Shown piece after piece: positions 50,220 through 53,316 of a DNA stretch of 64,000 nucleotides (its first letter is position 1; each line of letters begins with the position of its first letter). Source of the stretch: Nitrospirota bacterium. Its GTDB lineage: Bacteria > Nitrospirota > UBA9217. The position numbers and the translations under genes were made by a program. The notes beneath the pieces were generated by a model that saw only the letters and a list, made by a program, of their open reading frames with translations, was not told where the DNA came from and did no database searches. The stretch lies in NCBI GenBank assembly GCA_963840455.1, contig CAWIYV010000014.1, positions 448,001-512,000 of the forward strand, written 5' to 3'.

Positions 50220-50282
50220 GAGCGACGATTATAAATCACAGCTTGAGATTATTTGTTGTTCAATACATCACAGGAGGGAAAC

Positions 50283-50849
50283 ATGAAGAAGATCGCAATT
50301 GTTGCAGTGGTAGTGGTCATGATGGCGGGCCTTGCGGGCAGCGCTTTTGCCGCGAACAGCCTGGCCCAGGGGTCCAAGGCTATCAGCGTTGGGATGGGCG
50401 ACAGTTATTTCTCGCATACATTCTCACCGCAAACTCCAGGGGCTGTTAATAACGTCGTGGATATCAGCGGTCGGTACTTCGTTGCCAAGGATATGGCGCT
50501 CTACGGAGGGTTCGGTTTGCAGCTCAACAGCGGCGATTATGACGGCACCTATTTCAGCTTCACCGTAGGGGCCCGCAAATATCTGAGCACGAACGATTTC
50601 GCGCCTTTCATAGGCGGCCAGCTTGCATATGCCACGGTAGACGCGAAGCTCAACGGAACGAAGTTTGTCGACCAGTCGGTCTTTGACATTGCAGGAATGT
50701 TCGGCGCCGAGTATTTCTTCAGCAAGAACTTCAGCGTGGAGGGCTCCATTGGTCTCGGAGTTGGTCAGTTCAACGATGATCTCAATAATGCAGACAGCAC
50801 CTATCTCGGCACGAGGACAGTGGGCGTGCAGGCAAACTTCTACTTCTAA
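50283..50849 (+). CDS. Small outer-membrane beta-barrel protein
   Basis: Signal peptide ending AFA, GAEYFFSKNFSVEG motif, terminal FYF. Confidence 0.85.
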   Translation: MKKIAIVAVVVVMMAGLAGSAFAANSLAQGSKAISVGMGDSYFSHTFSPQTPGAVNNVVDISGRYFVAKDMALYGGFGLQLNSGDYDGTYFSFTVGARKYLSTNDFAPFIGGQLAYATVDAKLNGTKFVDQSVFDIAGMFGAEYFFSKNFSVEGSIGLGVGQFNDDLNNADSTYLGTRTVGVQANFYF

Positions 50850-50902
50850 GCACGGTTCAGAGATCATGCCACTGTCATGATCCGACAGCAGAGCTGAAAC
50901 AC

Positions 50903-50937
50903 AAATCCCCGGAGAGTCCATCTTTCCGGGGATTTTT
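50903..50937 (+). terminator. Intrinsic terminator
   Basis: AAATCCCCGGA/TCCGGGGATTT stem followed by T residues. Confidence 0.85.
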
Positions 50938-50982
50938 ATTGTGACAAGGTTGGAGCTCTTCAGGAATAGAAAGGCAAAAAGA

Positions 50983-51200
50983 TTTTACCGCGAAGGCGCG
51001 AAGAACGCGAAGAAGGTCAAAGACCTCGATTATTTAGACCAAGGACCGAAAGTTCCTTACGCAACAGAGCCACTGAGTAACAAATGGATATCTCAGTTAA
51101 GGCTTTCTCTGAGAGCGCTGAACTCTCTGTGACAAAAGATGATGAGAAGAATGCTTTCTTTTTAGTATCCCCTCGCGACCTTCGCGCCTTCGCGGTTCAA
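50983..51200. mobile_element. Putative non-autonomous element bounded by 26-bp 9-nt-periodic inverted repeats
   Basis: ACCGCGAAGGCGCGAAGAACGCGAAG (50987-51012) and CCTCGCGACCTTCGCGCCTTCGCGGT (51171-51196); same ends as the GxxExxY element. Confidence 0.75.
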
Positions 51201-51225
51201 GGGGCTTGGGTTTTTGTCGGCTAGA

Positions 51226-52077
51226 TCACGGATTCTGCAGTTTCGCGGCCTTGACCACGTGCTTCAGGAGTACCCGCGTAGTGACGGTGCCTACGCCGCC
51301 CGGCACCGGGGTGATGGCGCCGGCGACCTCTTTGGCCGGCTCCGTGTCCACGTCGCCGAACAGCTTGTCGCCTTCCACGTTGATGCCCACGTCCATGACC
51401 GTTGCCCCCGGCTTGATATAGTTCGGCGTGATCATCTTTGCCTTGCCGATGGCCGCAACGAGGATGTCGGCGCGGCGGCAGACCCCTGGCAGGTCCTGGG
51501 TCCGCGAGTGGCAGACGGTGACTGTTGCGTTCTCGCCCAAGAGCAGCATGGCCTGGGGCTTGCCCACCACCATGGAGCGGCCGATGACCACGGCCTCCTT
51601 GCCGCTCATCGGAATGGTGTAGAAGCGGAGCATCTCCATGACGGCCTGGGGCGTGGCGGGCGGGAATCCGGTCATATCGCCGGCCATGACCTTGCCGGCG
51701 TTCACGGGATTGAAGCAGTCGATGTCCTTTTCCGGCGCAAGAATATGCTTGACCACGTCCTCGCTGATCTGCTTCGGGAAGGGCCGCATGACGATGATGC
51801 CGTGGATGGCCTTGTTGCTGTTCCGCTCCTTCAGTATCTTGACGAACTCATCCTGGCCCGTGGTCCCCGGCAGCTGCTCGATGTCGCAGGCGATGCCGTT
51901 CTTTTCGGCCATCTTCTTCGCACTGTTCGCGTAGGCCAGCGAGTCCGGAGCATCGCCTACGATCATGATCTTGAGGGCGGGATTGATGCCTTTTCCCTTG
52001 AGGGCCTGAACCTCTGCCTGGATGTCCTGGTCCATCTTCTGCGCCACTTCTTTTCCCGTCAACAGTTTTGCCGCCAT
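51226..52077 (-). CDS. folD: Methylenetetrahydrofolate dehydrogenase FolD (probably monofunctional)
   Basis: GRSMVVGKP, DVGIN and TPVPGGVG motifs; E. coli K54 and Q98 equivalents are Ala and Met. Confidence 0.93.
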   Translation of the reverse strand: MAAKLLTGKEVAQKMDQDIQAEVQALKGKGINPALKIMIVGDAPDSLAYANSAKKMAEKNGIACDIEQLPGTTGQDEFVKILKERNSNKAIHGIIVMRPFPKQISEDVVKHILAPEKDIDCFNPVNAGKVMAGDMTGFPPATPQAVMEMLRFYTIPMSGKEAVVIGRSMVVGKPQAMLLLGENATVTVCHSRTQDLPGVCRRADILVAAIGKAKMITPNYIKPGATVMDVGINVEGDKLFGDVDTEPAKEVAGAITPVPGGVGTVTTRVLLKHVVKAAKLQNP

Positions 52078-52160
52078 GGTCGCTCCTTTATAAACATGAT
52101 TTGCCGCATGCAGCTGAGATCATAAAGCAAAGATTGAAATCAACATCACAATCGTAAAGC

Positions 52161-52659
52161 TTTTACCGCGAAGGCGCGAAGAACGCCAAGGAAATCAGAA
52201 GGGAATTCTGCGTGCAATGAAATAGAATATCTACAGATTGTTGACCATTCTCTTGATGCCGTCTTTCATGCGGGGTACATTCCAGTTGAGTAAAAAACCC
52301 AATTTGCATTTTTTCATCTTCAAATAGGTCAGCAGCTGTGCTTCGTGTACCGGCAGGAGTTTCTCAACGGTCTTGTGTTCGACGATTACTGATCCTTGCA
52401 CGATCATATCTATTCGATAACCTGCATCAATGATAATTTTCTCATAGATAATCGCAAAACCACTTCGCACTCTACGGTTAATTCATCTTTATTCAGTTCA
52501 TACTTCATGCATTTCTGATATGCCGATTCCATCAAGCCGGGGCCTAAAATAGTATGTACTTTAATGGCAACATCAACGATCCTTTTAGCGATCTCTTCTA
52601 TATCCATAAACGGATTTCCGAGATTTACTCTTCGCGTCCTTCGCGCCTTGGCGGTTCAA
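52161..52659. mobile_element. Putative mobile cassette: GxxExxY gene between 26-bp inverted repeats
   Basis: Inverted repeats at 52165-52190 and 52630-52655 match 23/26. Low-GC interior, located between fchA and folD. Confidence 0.72.
52231..52607 (-). pseudogene. GxxExxY protein (PD-(D/E)xK-like), split by a 1-bp frameshift
   Basis: 5' part VHTILGPGLMESAYQKC; 3' part YRIDMIV..IVEHK..HEAQLLTYLK..GFLLNW. One base appears missing near 52454 (TTG CG ATT instead of TTG CCG ATT). Confidence 0.88.
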
Positions 52660-52689
52660 GGTTTTACCGCAGCCCGGACACTGATTTTC

Positions 52690-53316
52690 TTACCCCATCT
52701 TCCTATACGTCGTCTCCATCACGCTCTTCTCGAGCGCAGCCACCTGCTTCAGAACATCCTGCATCTTCGACCATGTCGGCTTATTGTAGGCCTCGTCCTT
52801 GATGCTGTTGACATTGATCTTGACGTTCAGCGCGGCGCTCTGGGCGCAGGCCTGGGCGAGGAGCACTGCCACGCCGGCGTCGCTCACCGCGGCCACGTTG
52901 CCGATATCGGCAGCGCGCTGGGCGAGTCTCGCAACCTCCAGGGATTTCAGACCGATCTCGAAGGGGACCTGGCAGGCCAGCTTCAGCGCCTCCTGCATCT
53001 TTGCAGTGCGCGCGGCCTTCTCGGCGTCGGTGTTCTTCGGCATCTTGTAGACCTCGGAGAGTCCGCCGTAGACCTCGGTGTCCTTCTGGATCAGGTCCTG
53101 CATTTCGGTCCGGAGCTTCTCCGACTCCTTGATCAGGGCCTCGACCTGGGGCTGGACATCCTTGTATTTTTCCTTGCCCAGGGTTAGGCTGCAGACCATG
53201 CTGACGAGCCCGGCGCCGAGGGATCCGGTGAGCGCGGCAACGCTCCCGCCGCCCGGTTCGGGGGACTTGCTGGCAAGCTTATCCAGGAAATGACGAATCG
53301 GCTGGTCGATATACAT
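52690..53316 (-). CDS. fchA: Methenyltetrahydrofolate cyclohydrolase (FTCD-C/cyclodeaminase family)
   Basis: LASKSPEPGGGSVAAL, GNVAAVSDAGVA and LNVKIN motifs; co-oriented with folD. Confidence 0.85.
   Translation of the reverse strand: MYIDQPIRHFLDKLASKSPEPGGGSVAALTGSLGAGLVSMVCSLTLGKEKYKDVQPQVEALIKESEKLRTEMQDLIQKDTEVYGGLSEVYKMPKNTDAEKAARTAKMQEALKLACQVPFEIGLKSLEVARLAQRAADIGNVAAVSDAGVAVLLAQACAQSAALNVKINVNSIKDEAYNKPTWSKMQDVLKQVAALEKSVMETTYRKMG

What the first reader, a model, noticed from the sequence alone, without database searches (positions are those of the whole stretch)
52161..52659. GxxExxY nuclease-like gene packaged between 9-nt-periodic inverted repeats: candidate new mobile/REP-like system
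Seen: a low-GC GxxExxY ORF (GLMESAY motif, D...ExK core) is tightly bracketed by 26-bp inverted repeats, ACCGCGAAGGCGCGAAGAACGCCAAG and the reverse-complement arm ACCGCCAAGGCGCGAAGGACGCGAAG (23/26 match). The arms are built from roughly 9-nt units (xxCGCGAAG), and the cassette separates fchA from folD. No DDE, HUH or recombinase gene is present and I see no target duplication. Known: GxxExxY proteins are small PD-(D/E)xK-fold proteins of unassigned function. Inference: the protein may recognise and spread these repeats, like the RAYT/REP pairing but with a different enzyme class.
Basis: partly seen in the sequence, partly recalled or inferred. Interest (0 to 1): 0.85.

Follow-up and report, generated by a model that had tools for sequence, protein, structure and literature searches.

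The report
Dead nuclease gene in hairpin cassette
A broken small nuclease gene, boxed in by two inverted arrays of a 9-base unit, sits between two folate-pathway genes; it is one copy of a large family of hairpin repeats that fill operon gaps in this bacterium, and each type of this nuclease gene comes with its own repeat unit.

Summary
A frameshifted GxxExxY (PD-(D/E)xK) gene lies between fchA and folD. It is flanked by 35-nt inverted arms, each made of three CGCGAAG units.

It is not a lone oddity:
- This 4.0-Mb Nitrospirota genome holds about 111 hairpins with periodic arms in several unit families. Of the 91 that are clearly intergenic, 84 lie between co-oriented genes.
- A second, gene-less copy lies just past folD.
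- Five of the six GxxExxY loci in the genome are clearly flanked by inverted arrays of short units, each locus with its own unit. The sixth is weak.
- The same holds in relatives (71 of 104 loci) and across phyla (60 of 76). Shifted control positions gave 0 of 391.
- The unit sequence tracks the protein clade and is conserved across phyla, whereas arm pairing shows no RNA-type signature.
- Four-helix-bundle "23S-IVS" genes have the same design, with 7-nt units.
- Operon spacers differ completely between this genome and its closest relative.

My reading, at about 50%: a selfish cassette whose protein recognises its own arm units on DNA. This resembles REPIN/RAYT in logic and ORF-bearing rRNA intervening sequences in anatomy.

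This scan noted the same cassette type earlier in at least 53 other genomes. I found no published description of it.

The parts
52630..52664 (-). 5' arm of the cassette, in the gene's sense. It holds three units: CGCCAAG, CGCGAAG, CGCGAAG. An outer ACC/TTGA extension precedes them.
   Evidence: the repeat finder pair I2; sequence; pattern match
52410..52607 (-). N-terminal part of the GxxExxY gene (MDIEEIAK...GPGLMESAY...). The frame runs into a stop after the shift.
   Evidence: ORF list; PF13366 49.4 bits, profile positions 2-58; TIGR04256 49.8 bits
52452..52456 (-). Approximate place of the frameshift that splits the gene. One base is missing relative to the paralogue on C7.
   Evidence: Overlap of the two frames, compared with the C7:125595-126071 copy. 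This is an inference from the comparison.
52231..52470 (-). C-terminal part of the GxxExxY gene (..YRIDMIV..VIVEHKTV..HEAQLLTYLK..NWNVPRMKDGIKRMVNNL)
   Evidence: ORF list; PF13366 75.3 bits, profile positions 48-117; TIGR04256 81.8 bits
52156..52190 (-). 3' arm of the cassette, in the gene's sense; the inverted copy of the 5' arm
   Evidence: the repeat finder I2; sequence
52690..53316 (-). Upstream host gene, fchA-type cyclodeaminase/cyclohydrolase. Its stop codon lies 25 nt before the 5' arm.
   Evidence: PF04961 FTCD_C, E 1.8e-67
51226..52077 (-). Downstream host gene folD. Its start codon lies 78 nt after the 3' arm.
   Evidence: PF02882 and PF00763
50978..51202 (.). Second, gene-less hairpin of the same family, downstream of folD. 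Arms are 50978-51013 and 51170-51202, with a 162-nt AT-rich interior that has no recognisable gene remnant.
   Evidence: the repeat finder I4, D1, D2; no tblastn hit for this interior among the 30 tested

Best explanation
The region is a decayed copy of a selfish 'hairpin cassette'. Such a cassette is a small PD-(D/E)xK (GxxExxY) nuclease gene enclosed by two inverted arrays. Each array has three short units, here CGCGAAG plus 1-2 spacer bases. The cassette sits in an operon spacer, oriented so that host read-through transcribes it.

I propose that the units are the recognition sites of the cassette's own protein, and that they act on DNA rather than as an RNA stem. On this view the many gene-less hairpins with the same arms are its non-autonomous or decayed relatives and its landing sites. 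This is the same logic as REPINs and their RAYT, with a different enzyme.

Spread would follow nuclease action at cognate arms, with copying of a filled cassette into an empty one (homing-like), or excision and insertion.

Shown:
- the anatomy;
- the copy numbers;
- the position in operon spacers and the co-orientation of the cargo;
- the pairing of protein clade with unit sequence;
- cross-phylum conservation of the units;
- rapid turnover of spacers;
- the lack of an RNA-pairing signature.

Inferred:
- that the protein binds the units;
- that it cuts there;
- how copies spread.

The copy in this window is dead by frameshift.
For: 1. **Gene and arms go together.**
   - 25 of 30 and then 71 of 104 GxxExxY loci in family genomes have flanking inverted repeats scoring 30 or more.
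   - 60 of 76 loci from at least 10 phyla do as well.
   - Shifted controls reached that score at 0 of 114 and 0 of 277 positions.
2. **Specificity travels with the cassette.**
   - The unit class changes 34 times on the protein tree, against a mean of 70 (minimum 64) in 300 shuffles.
   - The window's clade carries CGCGA[AG]G arms in four other genomes: L236, L249, L225 and L229.
   - One genome holds several unit families side by side.
3. **The constraint acts on unit identity.** In 54 cassettes, unit positions 2, 5 and 7 are the same in both arms in 94-100%. They are identical in all three units of an arm in 101-106 of 108 arms. Position 4 agrees in 70-78% and the spacers in 46-54%.
   - Units stay C[AG]CNGAG while the proteins fall to 55-76% identity.
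4. **No RNA-stem signature.**
   - Mismatches compatible with G.U on the sense strand versus A.C mismatches number 108 against 109 in 122 cassettes, and 106 against 118 in 84 empty hairpins.
   - An element's own arms pair no better than arms taken from different elements (0.74 against 0.755; 0.70 against 0.775).
5. **The catalytic set is conserved.** G19, G21, E24, Y27, D64, E74, K76 and Q88 are invariant in 30 sequences. The model is confident (pLDDT 96.5) and has a PD-(D/E)xK fold: Cas4 SSO0001 Z 8.2, BglII 7.7, Hjc 6.6.
6. **Non-autonomous copies exist.** There are 111 periodic hairpins. CGCGAAG-dimer counts are higher in the 7 genomes that have the window-type gene (3-119) than in the 34 others (0-23). 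One-sided Mann-Whitney p = 0.005; the genomes are related, so this is only suggestive.
7. **Turnover is fast.** Genes of the closest relative are 88-96% identical. Yet in 6 compared spacers the hairpins are absent (2), replaced by another family (2), a 690-nt cassette plus hairpin is reduced to 75 nt (1), or another palindrome is swapped in (1).
8. **Decay is frequent.** 3 of the 6 loci here are broken, as expected of a selfish nuclease gene.
Against: - No binding, cutting or movement has been observed.
- No target-site duplication or clean insertion boundary could be resolved.
- Four-helix-bundle genes are not nucleases, yet they have the same design with their own units: 19 of 31 loci against 0 of 116 controls. 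So a nuclease cannot be a general requirement.
- One cassette with CACAGAG arms carries an unrelated ORF.
- This genome has 41 CGCAGAG hairpins and 73 CGCAGAG dimer matches, but no CGCAGAG-armed GxxExxY gene among its six loci.
- Gene and arms are physically linked, so their agreement on a tree is partly plain co-inheritance.
- The search for protein residues that track unit positions had only 2-6 independent contrasts and showed nothing.
- Hairpins lie almost only between co-oriented genes: 84 of 91. The cargo is co-oriented with both neighbours in 62 of 89 loci and opposed to both in 4. A polarity with respect to transcription also exists, 20 against 5. All three fit an RNA-level role as well.
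- The experimentally studied relative, the Coxiella IVS, is cut as RNA by RNase III (PMC4990558).
Confidence: 0.5

Rival explanations
1. IVS-type RNA element. The arms matter only as an RNA stem in the operon transcript. RNase III cuts the stem, which frees the cargo RNA and splits the polycistronic message harmlessly. The protein plays no part in recognising the arms. The units are conserved because both arms must keep matching each other.
For: - Same anatomy as the Coxiella 23S rRNA IVS: a 28-bp terminal stem, tandem heptamer repeats (GACAGAT), a small ORF, and RNase III excision shown in vitro (PMC4990558, passages read).
- Four-helix-bundle cassettes in these genomes have 7-nt units, some of them GACAG-like.
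- 84 of 91 intergenic hairpins lie between co-oriented genes.
- The cargo is co-oriented with both neighbours in 62 of 89 loci.
- There is polarity with respect to transcription, 20 against 5.
- Spacers and position 4 still agree between arms more often than chance.
Against: - There is no excess of G.U over A.C mismatches on the sense strand: 108 against 109, and 106 against 118.
- There is no compensatory co-variation in 34, 42, 12 and 13 hairpins of four families.
- Mismatches make up 11-20% of arm positions.
- The three units within an arm are kept alike, which pairing alone does not require.
- RNase III is not known to need a particular sequence (recalled), yet the units are clade-specific and conserved across phyla.
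Confidence: 0.2
2. The hairpins are the primary mobile or amplifying entity, moved by an unlinked host or transposon enzyme. GxxExxY, four-helix-bundle and other small genes are passengers or secondary parasites that lodge in hairpin loops.
For: - Gene-less hairpins outnumber filled ones by about 20 to 1 in this genome.
- Three unrelated cargo types occur inside such arms.
- The CGCAGAG family thrives without a matching gene here.
- Only 1 of 30 long loops holds a weak trace of a GxxExxY gene. So most empty hairpins are not obviously gutted cassettes.
Against: - Cargo clade and unit type agree across genomes and phyla. Random lodging would not give that.
- Arm period differs by cargo type: 8-10 nt for GxxExxY, mostly 7 nt for four-helix-bundle genes.
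- The only HUH (Y1_Tnp) loci, 2 of them and both with internal stops, are not flanked by such arrays.
- No candidate trans-acting enzyme was found.
Confidence: 0.15
3. The periodic hairpins are host-beneficial operon elements, for example mRNA stabilisers, attenuators of polarity, or binding arrays for a host protein. The small genes are incidental.
For: - Tight placement in operon spacers: a median of 22 nt after the stop codon and 32 nt before the next start codon.
- About 17 of 25 relatives (judged by eye, not scored) carry some periodic array in the same fchA-folD spacer.
Against: - The array at a given spacer is replaced by unrelated unit families, or is absent, even in the closest relative.
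- Three relatives have a bare spacer of 27-33 nt and one has 60 nt.
- Many unit families coexist in one genome. This argues against a single host factor.
- The hairpins decay: about 20% of arm positions are mismatched.
Confidence: 0.08

Closest known systems
ORF-bearing intervening sequences (IVS) of 23S rRNA (Coxiella burnetii; also Leptospira, Brucella, Xanthomonas-type S23p / four-helix-bundle ORFs)
   Same: - A cassette of about 430-500 nt.
- Terminal inverted repeats that can form a stem of about 28 bp.
- Tandem short direct repeats inside the arm: GACAGAT heptamers in Coxiella, varying in number between strains.
- One small ORF that is often decaying.
- Regarded as selfish, with unknown mobility (PMC4990558: abstract and passages read).
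- Sibling cassettes with PF05635 cargo occur in this genome and its relatives.
   Different: - Here the site is an mRNA operon spacer, not rRNA helix 45.
- The cargo is a PD-(D/E)xK nuclease, not S23p.
- The units are 8-10 nt of the form C[AG]CN[AG]A[GT].
- More than 100 gene-less copies exist per genome.
- My tests found no RNA-pairing signature.
- Whether the 23S rRNA of this organism carries an IVS could not be checked, because the assembly has no LSU rRNA.
REPINs and their RAYT transposases (REP doublets forming hairpins; Bertels and Rainey 2011, PMC3116915: abstract read)
   Same: - Hairpins of two inverted repeat copies with a short variable spacer.
- Dozens to hundreds of extragenic copies.
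- Several families per genome, each linked to its own specific gene, which lies next to copies of its repeat.
- The repeats are proposed to be non-autonomous mobile DNA.
   Different: - The enzyme is a roughly 125-aa PD-(D/E)xK protein, not an HUH/Y1 transposase.
- Each arm is a tandem array of three 8-10-nt units, not a REP palindrome.
- The gene lies inside the hairpin, has several copies, and is often broken.
- The two Y1_Tnp loci of this genome are unrelated to these arrays.
MITEs and their autonomous TIR transposons
   Same: Short gene-less elements share terminal inverted repeats with rarer gene-bearing elements. Sites show presence/absence polymorphism.
   Different: - No target-site duplication was seen.
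- There is no known transposase.
- Only 1 of 30 long loops shows a weak cargo remnant.
- The arms are arrays of repeated units.
Homing endonuclease genes, including PD-(D/E)xK types such as I-Ssp6803I (recalled, not checked here)
   Same: - A small nuclease gene sits inside the sequence it may target.
- Distribution is patchy.
- Decay to pseudogenes is frequent.
- Filled and empty sites coexist.
   Different: - Targets would be multi-copy hairpins in operon spacers, rather than one conserved host gene site.
- There is no intron or intein context.
- No cleavage has been shown.

Membership tests
GxxExxY protein / PDDEXK_3 (TIGR04256, PF13366) | Profile match above the curated cut-off | tested here: met
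   The two halves score 49.4 and 75.3 bits against PF13366 (cut-off 22). They score 49.8 and 81.8 bits against TIGR04256 (cut-off 35). Together they cover profile positions 2-117.
GxxExxY protein / PDDEXK_3 (TIGR04256, PF13366) | GxGxxExxY motif plus the D and ExK catalytic residues | tested here: met
   GPGLMESAY, YRIDMIV and VIVEHK are present. The corresponding columns G19, G21, E24, Y27, D64, E74 and K76 are invariant in 30 relatives.
GxxExxY protein / PDDEXK_3 (TIGR04256, PF13366) | Intact reading frame (a functional member) | tested here: not met
   The gene is split over two frames, 52410-52607 and 52231-52470. It is a family member by descent, but a pseudogene.
ORF-bearing rRNA intervening sequence | Inserted in a helix of 23S (or 16S) rRNA | tested here: not met
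   It lies between the protein genes fchA and folD. Rfam gave no rRNA or other significant match in 50800-52800.
ORF-bearing rRNA intervening sequence | Terminal inverted repeats of about 25-35 nt that contain tandem short repeats | tested here: met
   The arms are 35 nt and 83% complementary, with three units each. For comparison, Coxiella has a 28-bp stem with heptamer repeats (PMC4990558).
ORF-bearing rRNA intervening sequence | Cargo is an S23p / four-helix-bundle protein (PF05635) | tested here: not met
   The cargo here is PF13366. PF05635 cassettes of the same design exist elsewhere in the genome, for example C13:87160-87648.
ORF-bearing rRNA intervening sequence | Excision from the transcript by RNase III | not testable with these tools
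   Only metagenome contigs were available, which give no usable RNA ends. The indirect pairing tests were negative.
REP/REPIN-RAYT system | Cognate gene is an HUH Y1 (RAYT) transposase flanked by its repeats | tested here: not met
   The genome has 2 PF01797 loci, both with internal stops. Neither is flanked by periodic arrays.
REP/REPIN-RAYT system | High-copy extragenic hairpins made of two inverted repeat copies, in families each tied to a specific gene | tested here: met
   There are 111 hairpins in several unit families. The unit class follows the GxxExxY clade.
MITE / TIR transposon | Target-site duplication at the element ends | tested here: inconclusive
   None is visible at this site or in six filled-versus-empty comparisons with the closest relative. 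The spacers there are too diverged to fix the boundaries.
Homing endonuclease gene | The nuclease cleaves the empty form of its own site | not testable with these tools
   This needs a biochemical assay. Only the coexistence of filled and empty sites and the decay of copies are shown.

The most novel reading that the evidence does not exclude
These cassettes are a new class of mobile element. A minimal protein of about 125 aa (a PD-(D/E)xK nuclease, or in sibling cassettes a four-helix-bundle protein) reads a short modular DNA word that is repeated three times in each of two inverted arms. The word follows a simple variable scheme, C[AG]C-N-[AG]A[GT]. All eight combinations of positions 2, 5 and 7 occur among 86 typed cassettes. 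Protein and word therefore co-diversify into many orthogonal pairs. These pairs home into operon spacers and leave behind REPIN-like hairpin populations. The classical rRNA intervening sequences would be one special case of this class.
Probability: 0.3. Interest if true: 0.9.

Novelty: new variant of a known kind. Interest (0 to 1): 0.72.

Why it matters
GxxExxY/PDDEXK_3 proteins are very widespread: 595 of the 600 sampled stretches in one scan encoded a relative. The PD-(D/E)xK survey lists their function as unknown, with multiple transfers between lineages (PMC3424549, table row read).

Tying them to clade-specific repeat units gives a concrete, testable function. It would also explain three other things:
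- why small "hypothetical" genes are wedged into essential operons and cas loci (PMC3936711 reports 23S_rRNA_IVP genes between cmr3 and cmr2; passage read);
- where a large share of intergenic hairpin repeats comes from in environmental bacteria such as this one;
- why contigs break at such sites.

If the proteins do read short words that can be changed, they would be a natural set of orthogonal pairs of a small protein and its DNA word. The origin of rRNA intervening sequences, which PMC4990558 describes as still unclear, would also become approachable.

Tried and rejected
- **Rfam.** A scan of 50800-52800 at E up to 1 gave only sub-threshold chance matches. The best was His_leader at 27.3 bits against a gathering score of 49.
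- **Expression and processing.** The look-up of sequencing runs found only wetland, freshwater and soil metagenome contigs, with a best word share of 0.37, plus one RNA run at 0.06. Laying 4 runs showed many other hairpins with the same arms and different loops. It showed no informative RNA ends and no clean empty-site allele of this organism.
- **23S rRNA IVS.** The assembly has no LSU rRNA match.
- **Solved structures.** A sequence search with the intact paralogue gave 0 hits. Fold searches gave only generic PD-(D/E)xK neighbours: Foldseek best E 3e-3, VIA Z up to 8.2. No specific function follows from these.
- **Homodimer prediction.** The job gave no answer.
- **Decayed genes in long loops.** tblastn of 182 proteins against 30 interiors gave one weak hit (C7:471821-471987, E 6e-4) and six hits at E 0.01-0.07, which I regard as noise.
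- **RAYT link.** Rejected.
- **Residue-to-unit code.** Raw Fisher p values reached 1e-10 to 1e-12, but there were only 2-6 independent contrasts, so the test had no power (the first script failed on a missing key and was rerun).
- **Target-site duplication.** None could be resolved.
Full report
**What is there**

On the minus strand the window reads: fchA-type gene (52690-53316, PF04961), a 612-nt spacer, then folD (51226-52077). The spacer holds a GxxExxY gene split over two frames, 52410-52607 and 52231-52470. Both halves are clear PF13366 / TIGR04256 matches, and the GPGLMESAY, D and ExK motifs are kept. The frames change near 52452-52456, judged against a paralogue.

The gene is enclosed by 35-nt inverted arms, 52156-52190 and 52630-52664. 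Each arm is ACC followed by three CGC[G/C]AAG units spaced 8-9 nt apart. The interior has 0.40 G+C against 0.56-0.60 for the contigs. The arm core occurs 4 times in the window against 0.43 expected by chance.

The other two occurrences form a second, gene-less hairpin just downstream of folD, with arms at 50978-51013 and 51170-51202 and 162 nt between them.

**It is one member of a genome-wide repeat superfamily**

The window's genome has 4.03 Mb in 14 contigs. The best-matching relative found in public records is titled a Nitrospirota MAG.

- The CGCGAAG-type arms form 46 plus/minus pairs, a few of them duplicates. Most span 74-132 bp and have unrelated loops.
- A blind count of 7-mers repeated at a period of 8-11 nt showed sibling families.
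- Pairing arms by family gave 41 CGCAGAG, 14 CACAGAG, 30 CGCGAAG, 13 CACGAAT, 6 GACACTG, 7 CGCAAAG and 5 CGCTGAG hairpins, plus a few others.
- After removing overlaps and pairs more than 700 nt apart, 111 elements remain.

I located genes with a crude codon-usage gene caller of my own. By its calls, 20 elements touch a called gene, mostly through over-extended starts. Of the other 91, 84 lie between co-oriented genes, 5 between convergent genes and 2 between divergent genes. The background of intergenic gaps is 1551, 276 and 301 respectively (chi-square p = 1.4e-4). The median distance is 22 nt after the upstream stop codon and 32 nt before the next start codon.

The architecture is always unit-array followed by reverse-complement array. 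Because of this symmetry the purine-rich array is 5' on both strands.

**Cargo**

The genome has six GxxExxY loci.

| Locus | State of the gene | Flanking unit |
|---|---|---|
| C9:141015 | intact | CACAGAG |
| C4:158455 | intact | CACGAAT |
| C7:63009 | heavily decayed | CACGAAT |
| C7:125656 | frameshifted; ExK changed to ENI | CGCGAAG |
| window copy | frameshifted | CGCGAAG |
| C14:178493 | intact | weak, non-array inverted repeat |

So five of the six are clearly flanked by inverted arrays, each locus with its own unit.

Other arm pairs enclose other cargo. A four-helix-bundle "23S rRNA IVS" gene lies at C13:87160-87648 with GACGCGG units. An unrelated ORF with a signal-peptide-like start lies at C9:240237-240721 with CACAGAG units.

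**Relatives and other phyla**

PF13366 matched in 32 of 41 genomes of the family. I scored the best local inverted repeat between the 180-nt flanks of each gene and compared it with positions shifted by 900-1250 nt.

| Set | Loci with score 30 or more | Controls with score 30 or more |
|---|---|---|
| First 30 family loci | 25 of 30 | 0 of 114 |
| Extended family set | 71 of 104 (80 at 26 or more) | - |
| Public genomes, at least 10 phyla | 60 of 76 | 0 of 277 |
| PF05635 (four-helix-bundle) loci | 19 of 31 | 0 of 116 |

- In the extended set (190 loci in all, family and cross-phylum together), 6 were dropped because my motif search found no gene and 5 because they lay at contig ends.
- In the public-genome set, 4 of the 80 loci were skipped at contig ends. 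Those proteins are only 55-76% identical to the query, yet nearly all of the 60 arms are built of C[AG]CNGAG units.
- PF05635 matched in 30 of 41 family genomes. Its arms are mostly built of 7-nt units such as GGGTCAG, CAGGAGC and GTAGACA.

**Unit sequence follows the cargo clade**

On a FastTree of 179 GxxExxY proteins, 108 carry a unit class. The class changes 34 times, against a mean of 70 (range 64-76) in 300 label shuffles. Gene and arms are linked, so part of this is co-inheritance.

Two further points go beyond linkage:
- The same pairings recur in different genomes and at different loci. The window's clade (..KVHTALGPGLLESAYQKCME..) has CGCGA[AG]G arms in L236, L249, L225 and L229.
- The constraint sits on unit identity. 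In 54 cassettes with three parsable units per arm, positions 2, 5 and 7 agree between arms in 94-100%. They are identical in all three units of an arm in 101-106 of 108 arms. Position 4 agrees in 70-78% and the spacers in 46-54%.

All eight combinations of positions 2, 5 and 7 occur among 86 typed cassettes.

**DNA or RNA?**

If the arms were kept as an RNA stem in the operon transcript, mismatches that still allow G.U on the sense strand should outnumber A.C mismatches. They do not:
- 106 against 118 in 84 empty hairpins oriented by their flanking genes;
- 108 against 109 in 122 cargo cassettes oriented by the cargo.

Within four hairpin families of this genome, an element's own arms are no more complementary than arms taken from different elements: 0.74 against 0.755, 0.70 against 0.775, 0.77 against 0.787, and 0.72 against 0.754. 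In the broader cargo set, own arms are more alike than cross pairs (0.86-0.89 against 0.68-0.73). That set mixes sub-types, so the result is expected from descent.

Against a purely DNA view:
- the elements strongly prefer co-transcribed spacers;
- GxxExxY genes are co-oriented with both neighbours in 62 of 89 loci and opposed to both in 4 (crude ORF calls);
- in the CGCAGAG family the variant unit CGCGGAG occurs only in the transcription-distal arm in 20 elements and only in the proximal arm in 5 (p = 0.004).

**Turnover**

In 25 relatives with both genes on one contig, the fchA-folD spacer is 27-176 nt. None holds a gene. Three spacers are 27-33 nt and one is 60 nt. By eye, not scored by a program, about 17 carry a periodic array or hairpin, and the units differ between genomes: TGCGGAWT, GGGTCATG, CAGGGTAC, AGCACCAAAT, CACGAAG, CGCAGAG.

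In the closest relative, G003 (fchA 92% identical in DNA), the same CGCGAAG-type arm follows fchA and the contig ends inside it. G003 also has an extra CGCGAAG hairpin upstream of fchA that G000 lacks.

I compared six spacers in a 20-kb region whose genes are 88-96% identical between the two genomes:
- two G000 hairpins are absent in G003;
- two are replaced by a hairpin of another family;
- a hairpin plus an intact GxxExxY cassette (about 690 nt) corresponds to about 75 nt that keeps one solo ATTCGTG unit;
- one spacer carries a different palindrome.

No target-site duplication or clean boundary could be read.

**Link between hairpin numbers and the matching gene**

Exact CGCGAAG dimers number 57 in G000, 119 in G026 and 40 in G010. 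The reversed control pattern gives 0-3 in each genome.
- The seven genomes in which I saw a window-type gene have 3, 4, 10, 10, 40, 57 and 119 dimers. The 34 others have 0-23. One-sided Mann-Whitney p = 0.005.
- The genomes are related and my list of matching genes may be incomplete, so this is only suggestive.
- The counter-example is G000's CGCAGAG family: 73 dimers and 41 hairpins, with no CGCAGAG-armed gene among its six loci. Arms that mix CACAGAG and CGCAGAG units do exist elsewhere.

**The protein**

Thirty family sequences keep G19, G21, E24, Y27, D64, E74, K76 and Q88 invariant. The AlphaFold model (pLDDT 96.5) is a minimal PD-(D/E)xK domain. Its nearest solved folds are Cas4 SSO0001 (Z 8.2), BglII (7.7), BpuSI (7.5) and Hjc (6.6), none of them close. 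There is no sequence relative among solved structures.

**Literature**

- "GxxExxY" occurs in 3 papers of the library (listing seen; neither listed title concerns these repeats).
- The six Pfam/TIGRFAM names and accessions I searched (PDDEXK_3, PF13366, 23S_rRNA_IVP, PF05635, TIGR04256, TIGR02436) occur in 6 papers.
  - The PD-(D/E)xK survey lists PDDEXK_3 as of unknown function with multiple transfers (PMC3424549, table row read).
  - One paper found 23S_rRNA_IVP genes wedged inside cas operons and read them as Cas-associated (PMC3936711, passage read).
  - Another found them in rRNA insertions of CPR bacteria (PMC11270868, passages read).
- The Coxiella paper describes the 28-bp stem, the GACAGAT heptamers, RNase III excision and ORF decay (PMC4990558, abstract and passages read).
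- REPINs are described in PMC3116915 (abstract read).
- Searches found no description of GxxExxY genes inside periodic inverted arrays, nor of such hairpin families. Subscription journals and unseen supplements could hold one.

**Earlier notes of this scan**

Fifty-six notes from at least 53 genomes describe the same cassette type and name the rRNA IVS as the closest known. I treated them as leads. This window adds:
- the large gene-less hairpin population;
- the placement and orientation statistics;
- the rule linking unit to clade;
- the negative tests for RNA pairing;
- the spacer-by-spacer comparison with a close relative.

**Verdict**

It is unproven and must be widened: each clade has its own unit, four-helix-bundle genes share the design, and the local copy is dead.

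Noticed in passing
G000:C7:125595-126071 (outside the window): The second CGCGAAG-armed GxxExxY cassette lies inside a reading frame that looks like a tyrosine recombinase (...LYGCGLRLFECAKLRLENFNIE upstream...LLQANYDIRTI... downstream). So this cassette type can also interrupt a gene.
   Followed up: no
G000:C9:240237-240721 (outside the window): CACAGAG-type arms enclose an ORF that is neither GxxExxY nor four-helix-bundle. The ORF is on the minus strand and has a hydrophobic, signal-peptide-like start. This is a third cargo type in the same kind of arms.
   Followed up: no
G000:C7:56296-56535, C10:110173-110388, C11:389133-389319; relatives' spacers L003 and L015: Some hairpin loops and spacers carry other short palindromes that recur between genomes, nested inside or beside the periodic arms. 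Examples are GTCATTGCGAGGAGCGAA...TTCGCTCGCAATGAC and CGTCATTCCTGCG.AGGCAGGAA-like.
   Followed up: no
G000:C4 about 141550; relatives' fchA-folD spacers L005, L007, L013: One-armed arrays exist, meaning tandem units with no inverted partner. Examples are GACACGGAGACGCGGGGACAGGGGGACTCGGAG and TGCGGAWT repeats.
   Followed up: partly
Locus L002 (G003:C22), last 70 nt: The closest relative's contig ends inside the CGCGAAG arm downstream of fchA. These repeats appear to break short-read assemblies, so gene-bearing copies may be under-counted in draft genomes.
   Followed up: partly
Locus L136 (contig titled Methanothrix sp.): An archaeal contig carries a close GxxExxY relative (60% identity) with no detectable flanking inverted repeat, score 17.
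   Followed up: no
window 50898-50940: A 19-nt G+C-rich hairpin followed by a run of T lies right after the outer-membrane beta-barrel gene (50253-50849). It looks like an ordinary intrinsic terminator and sits 40 nt before the gene-less periodic hairpin.
   Followed up: no
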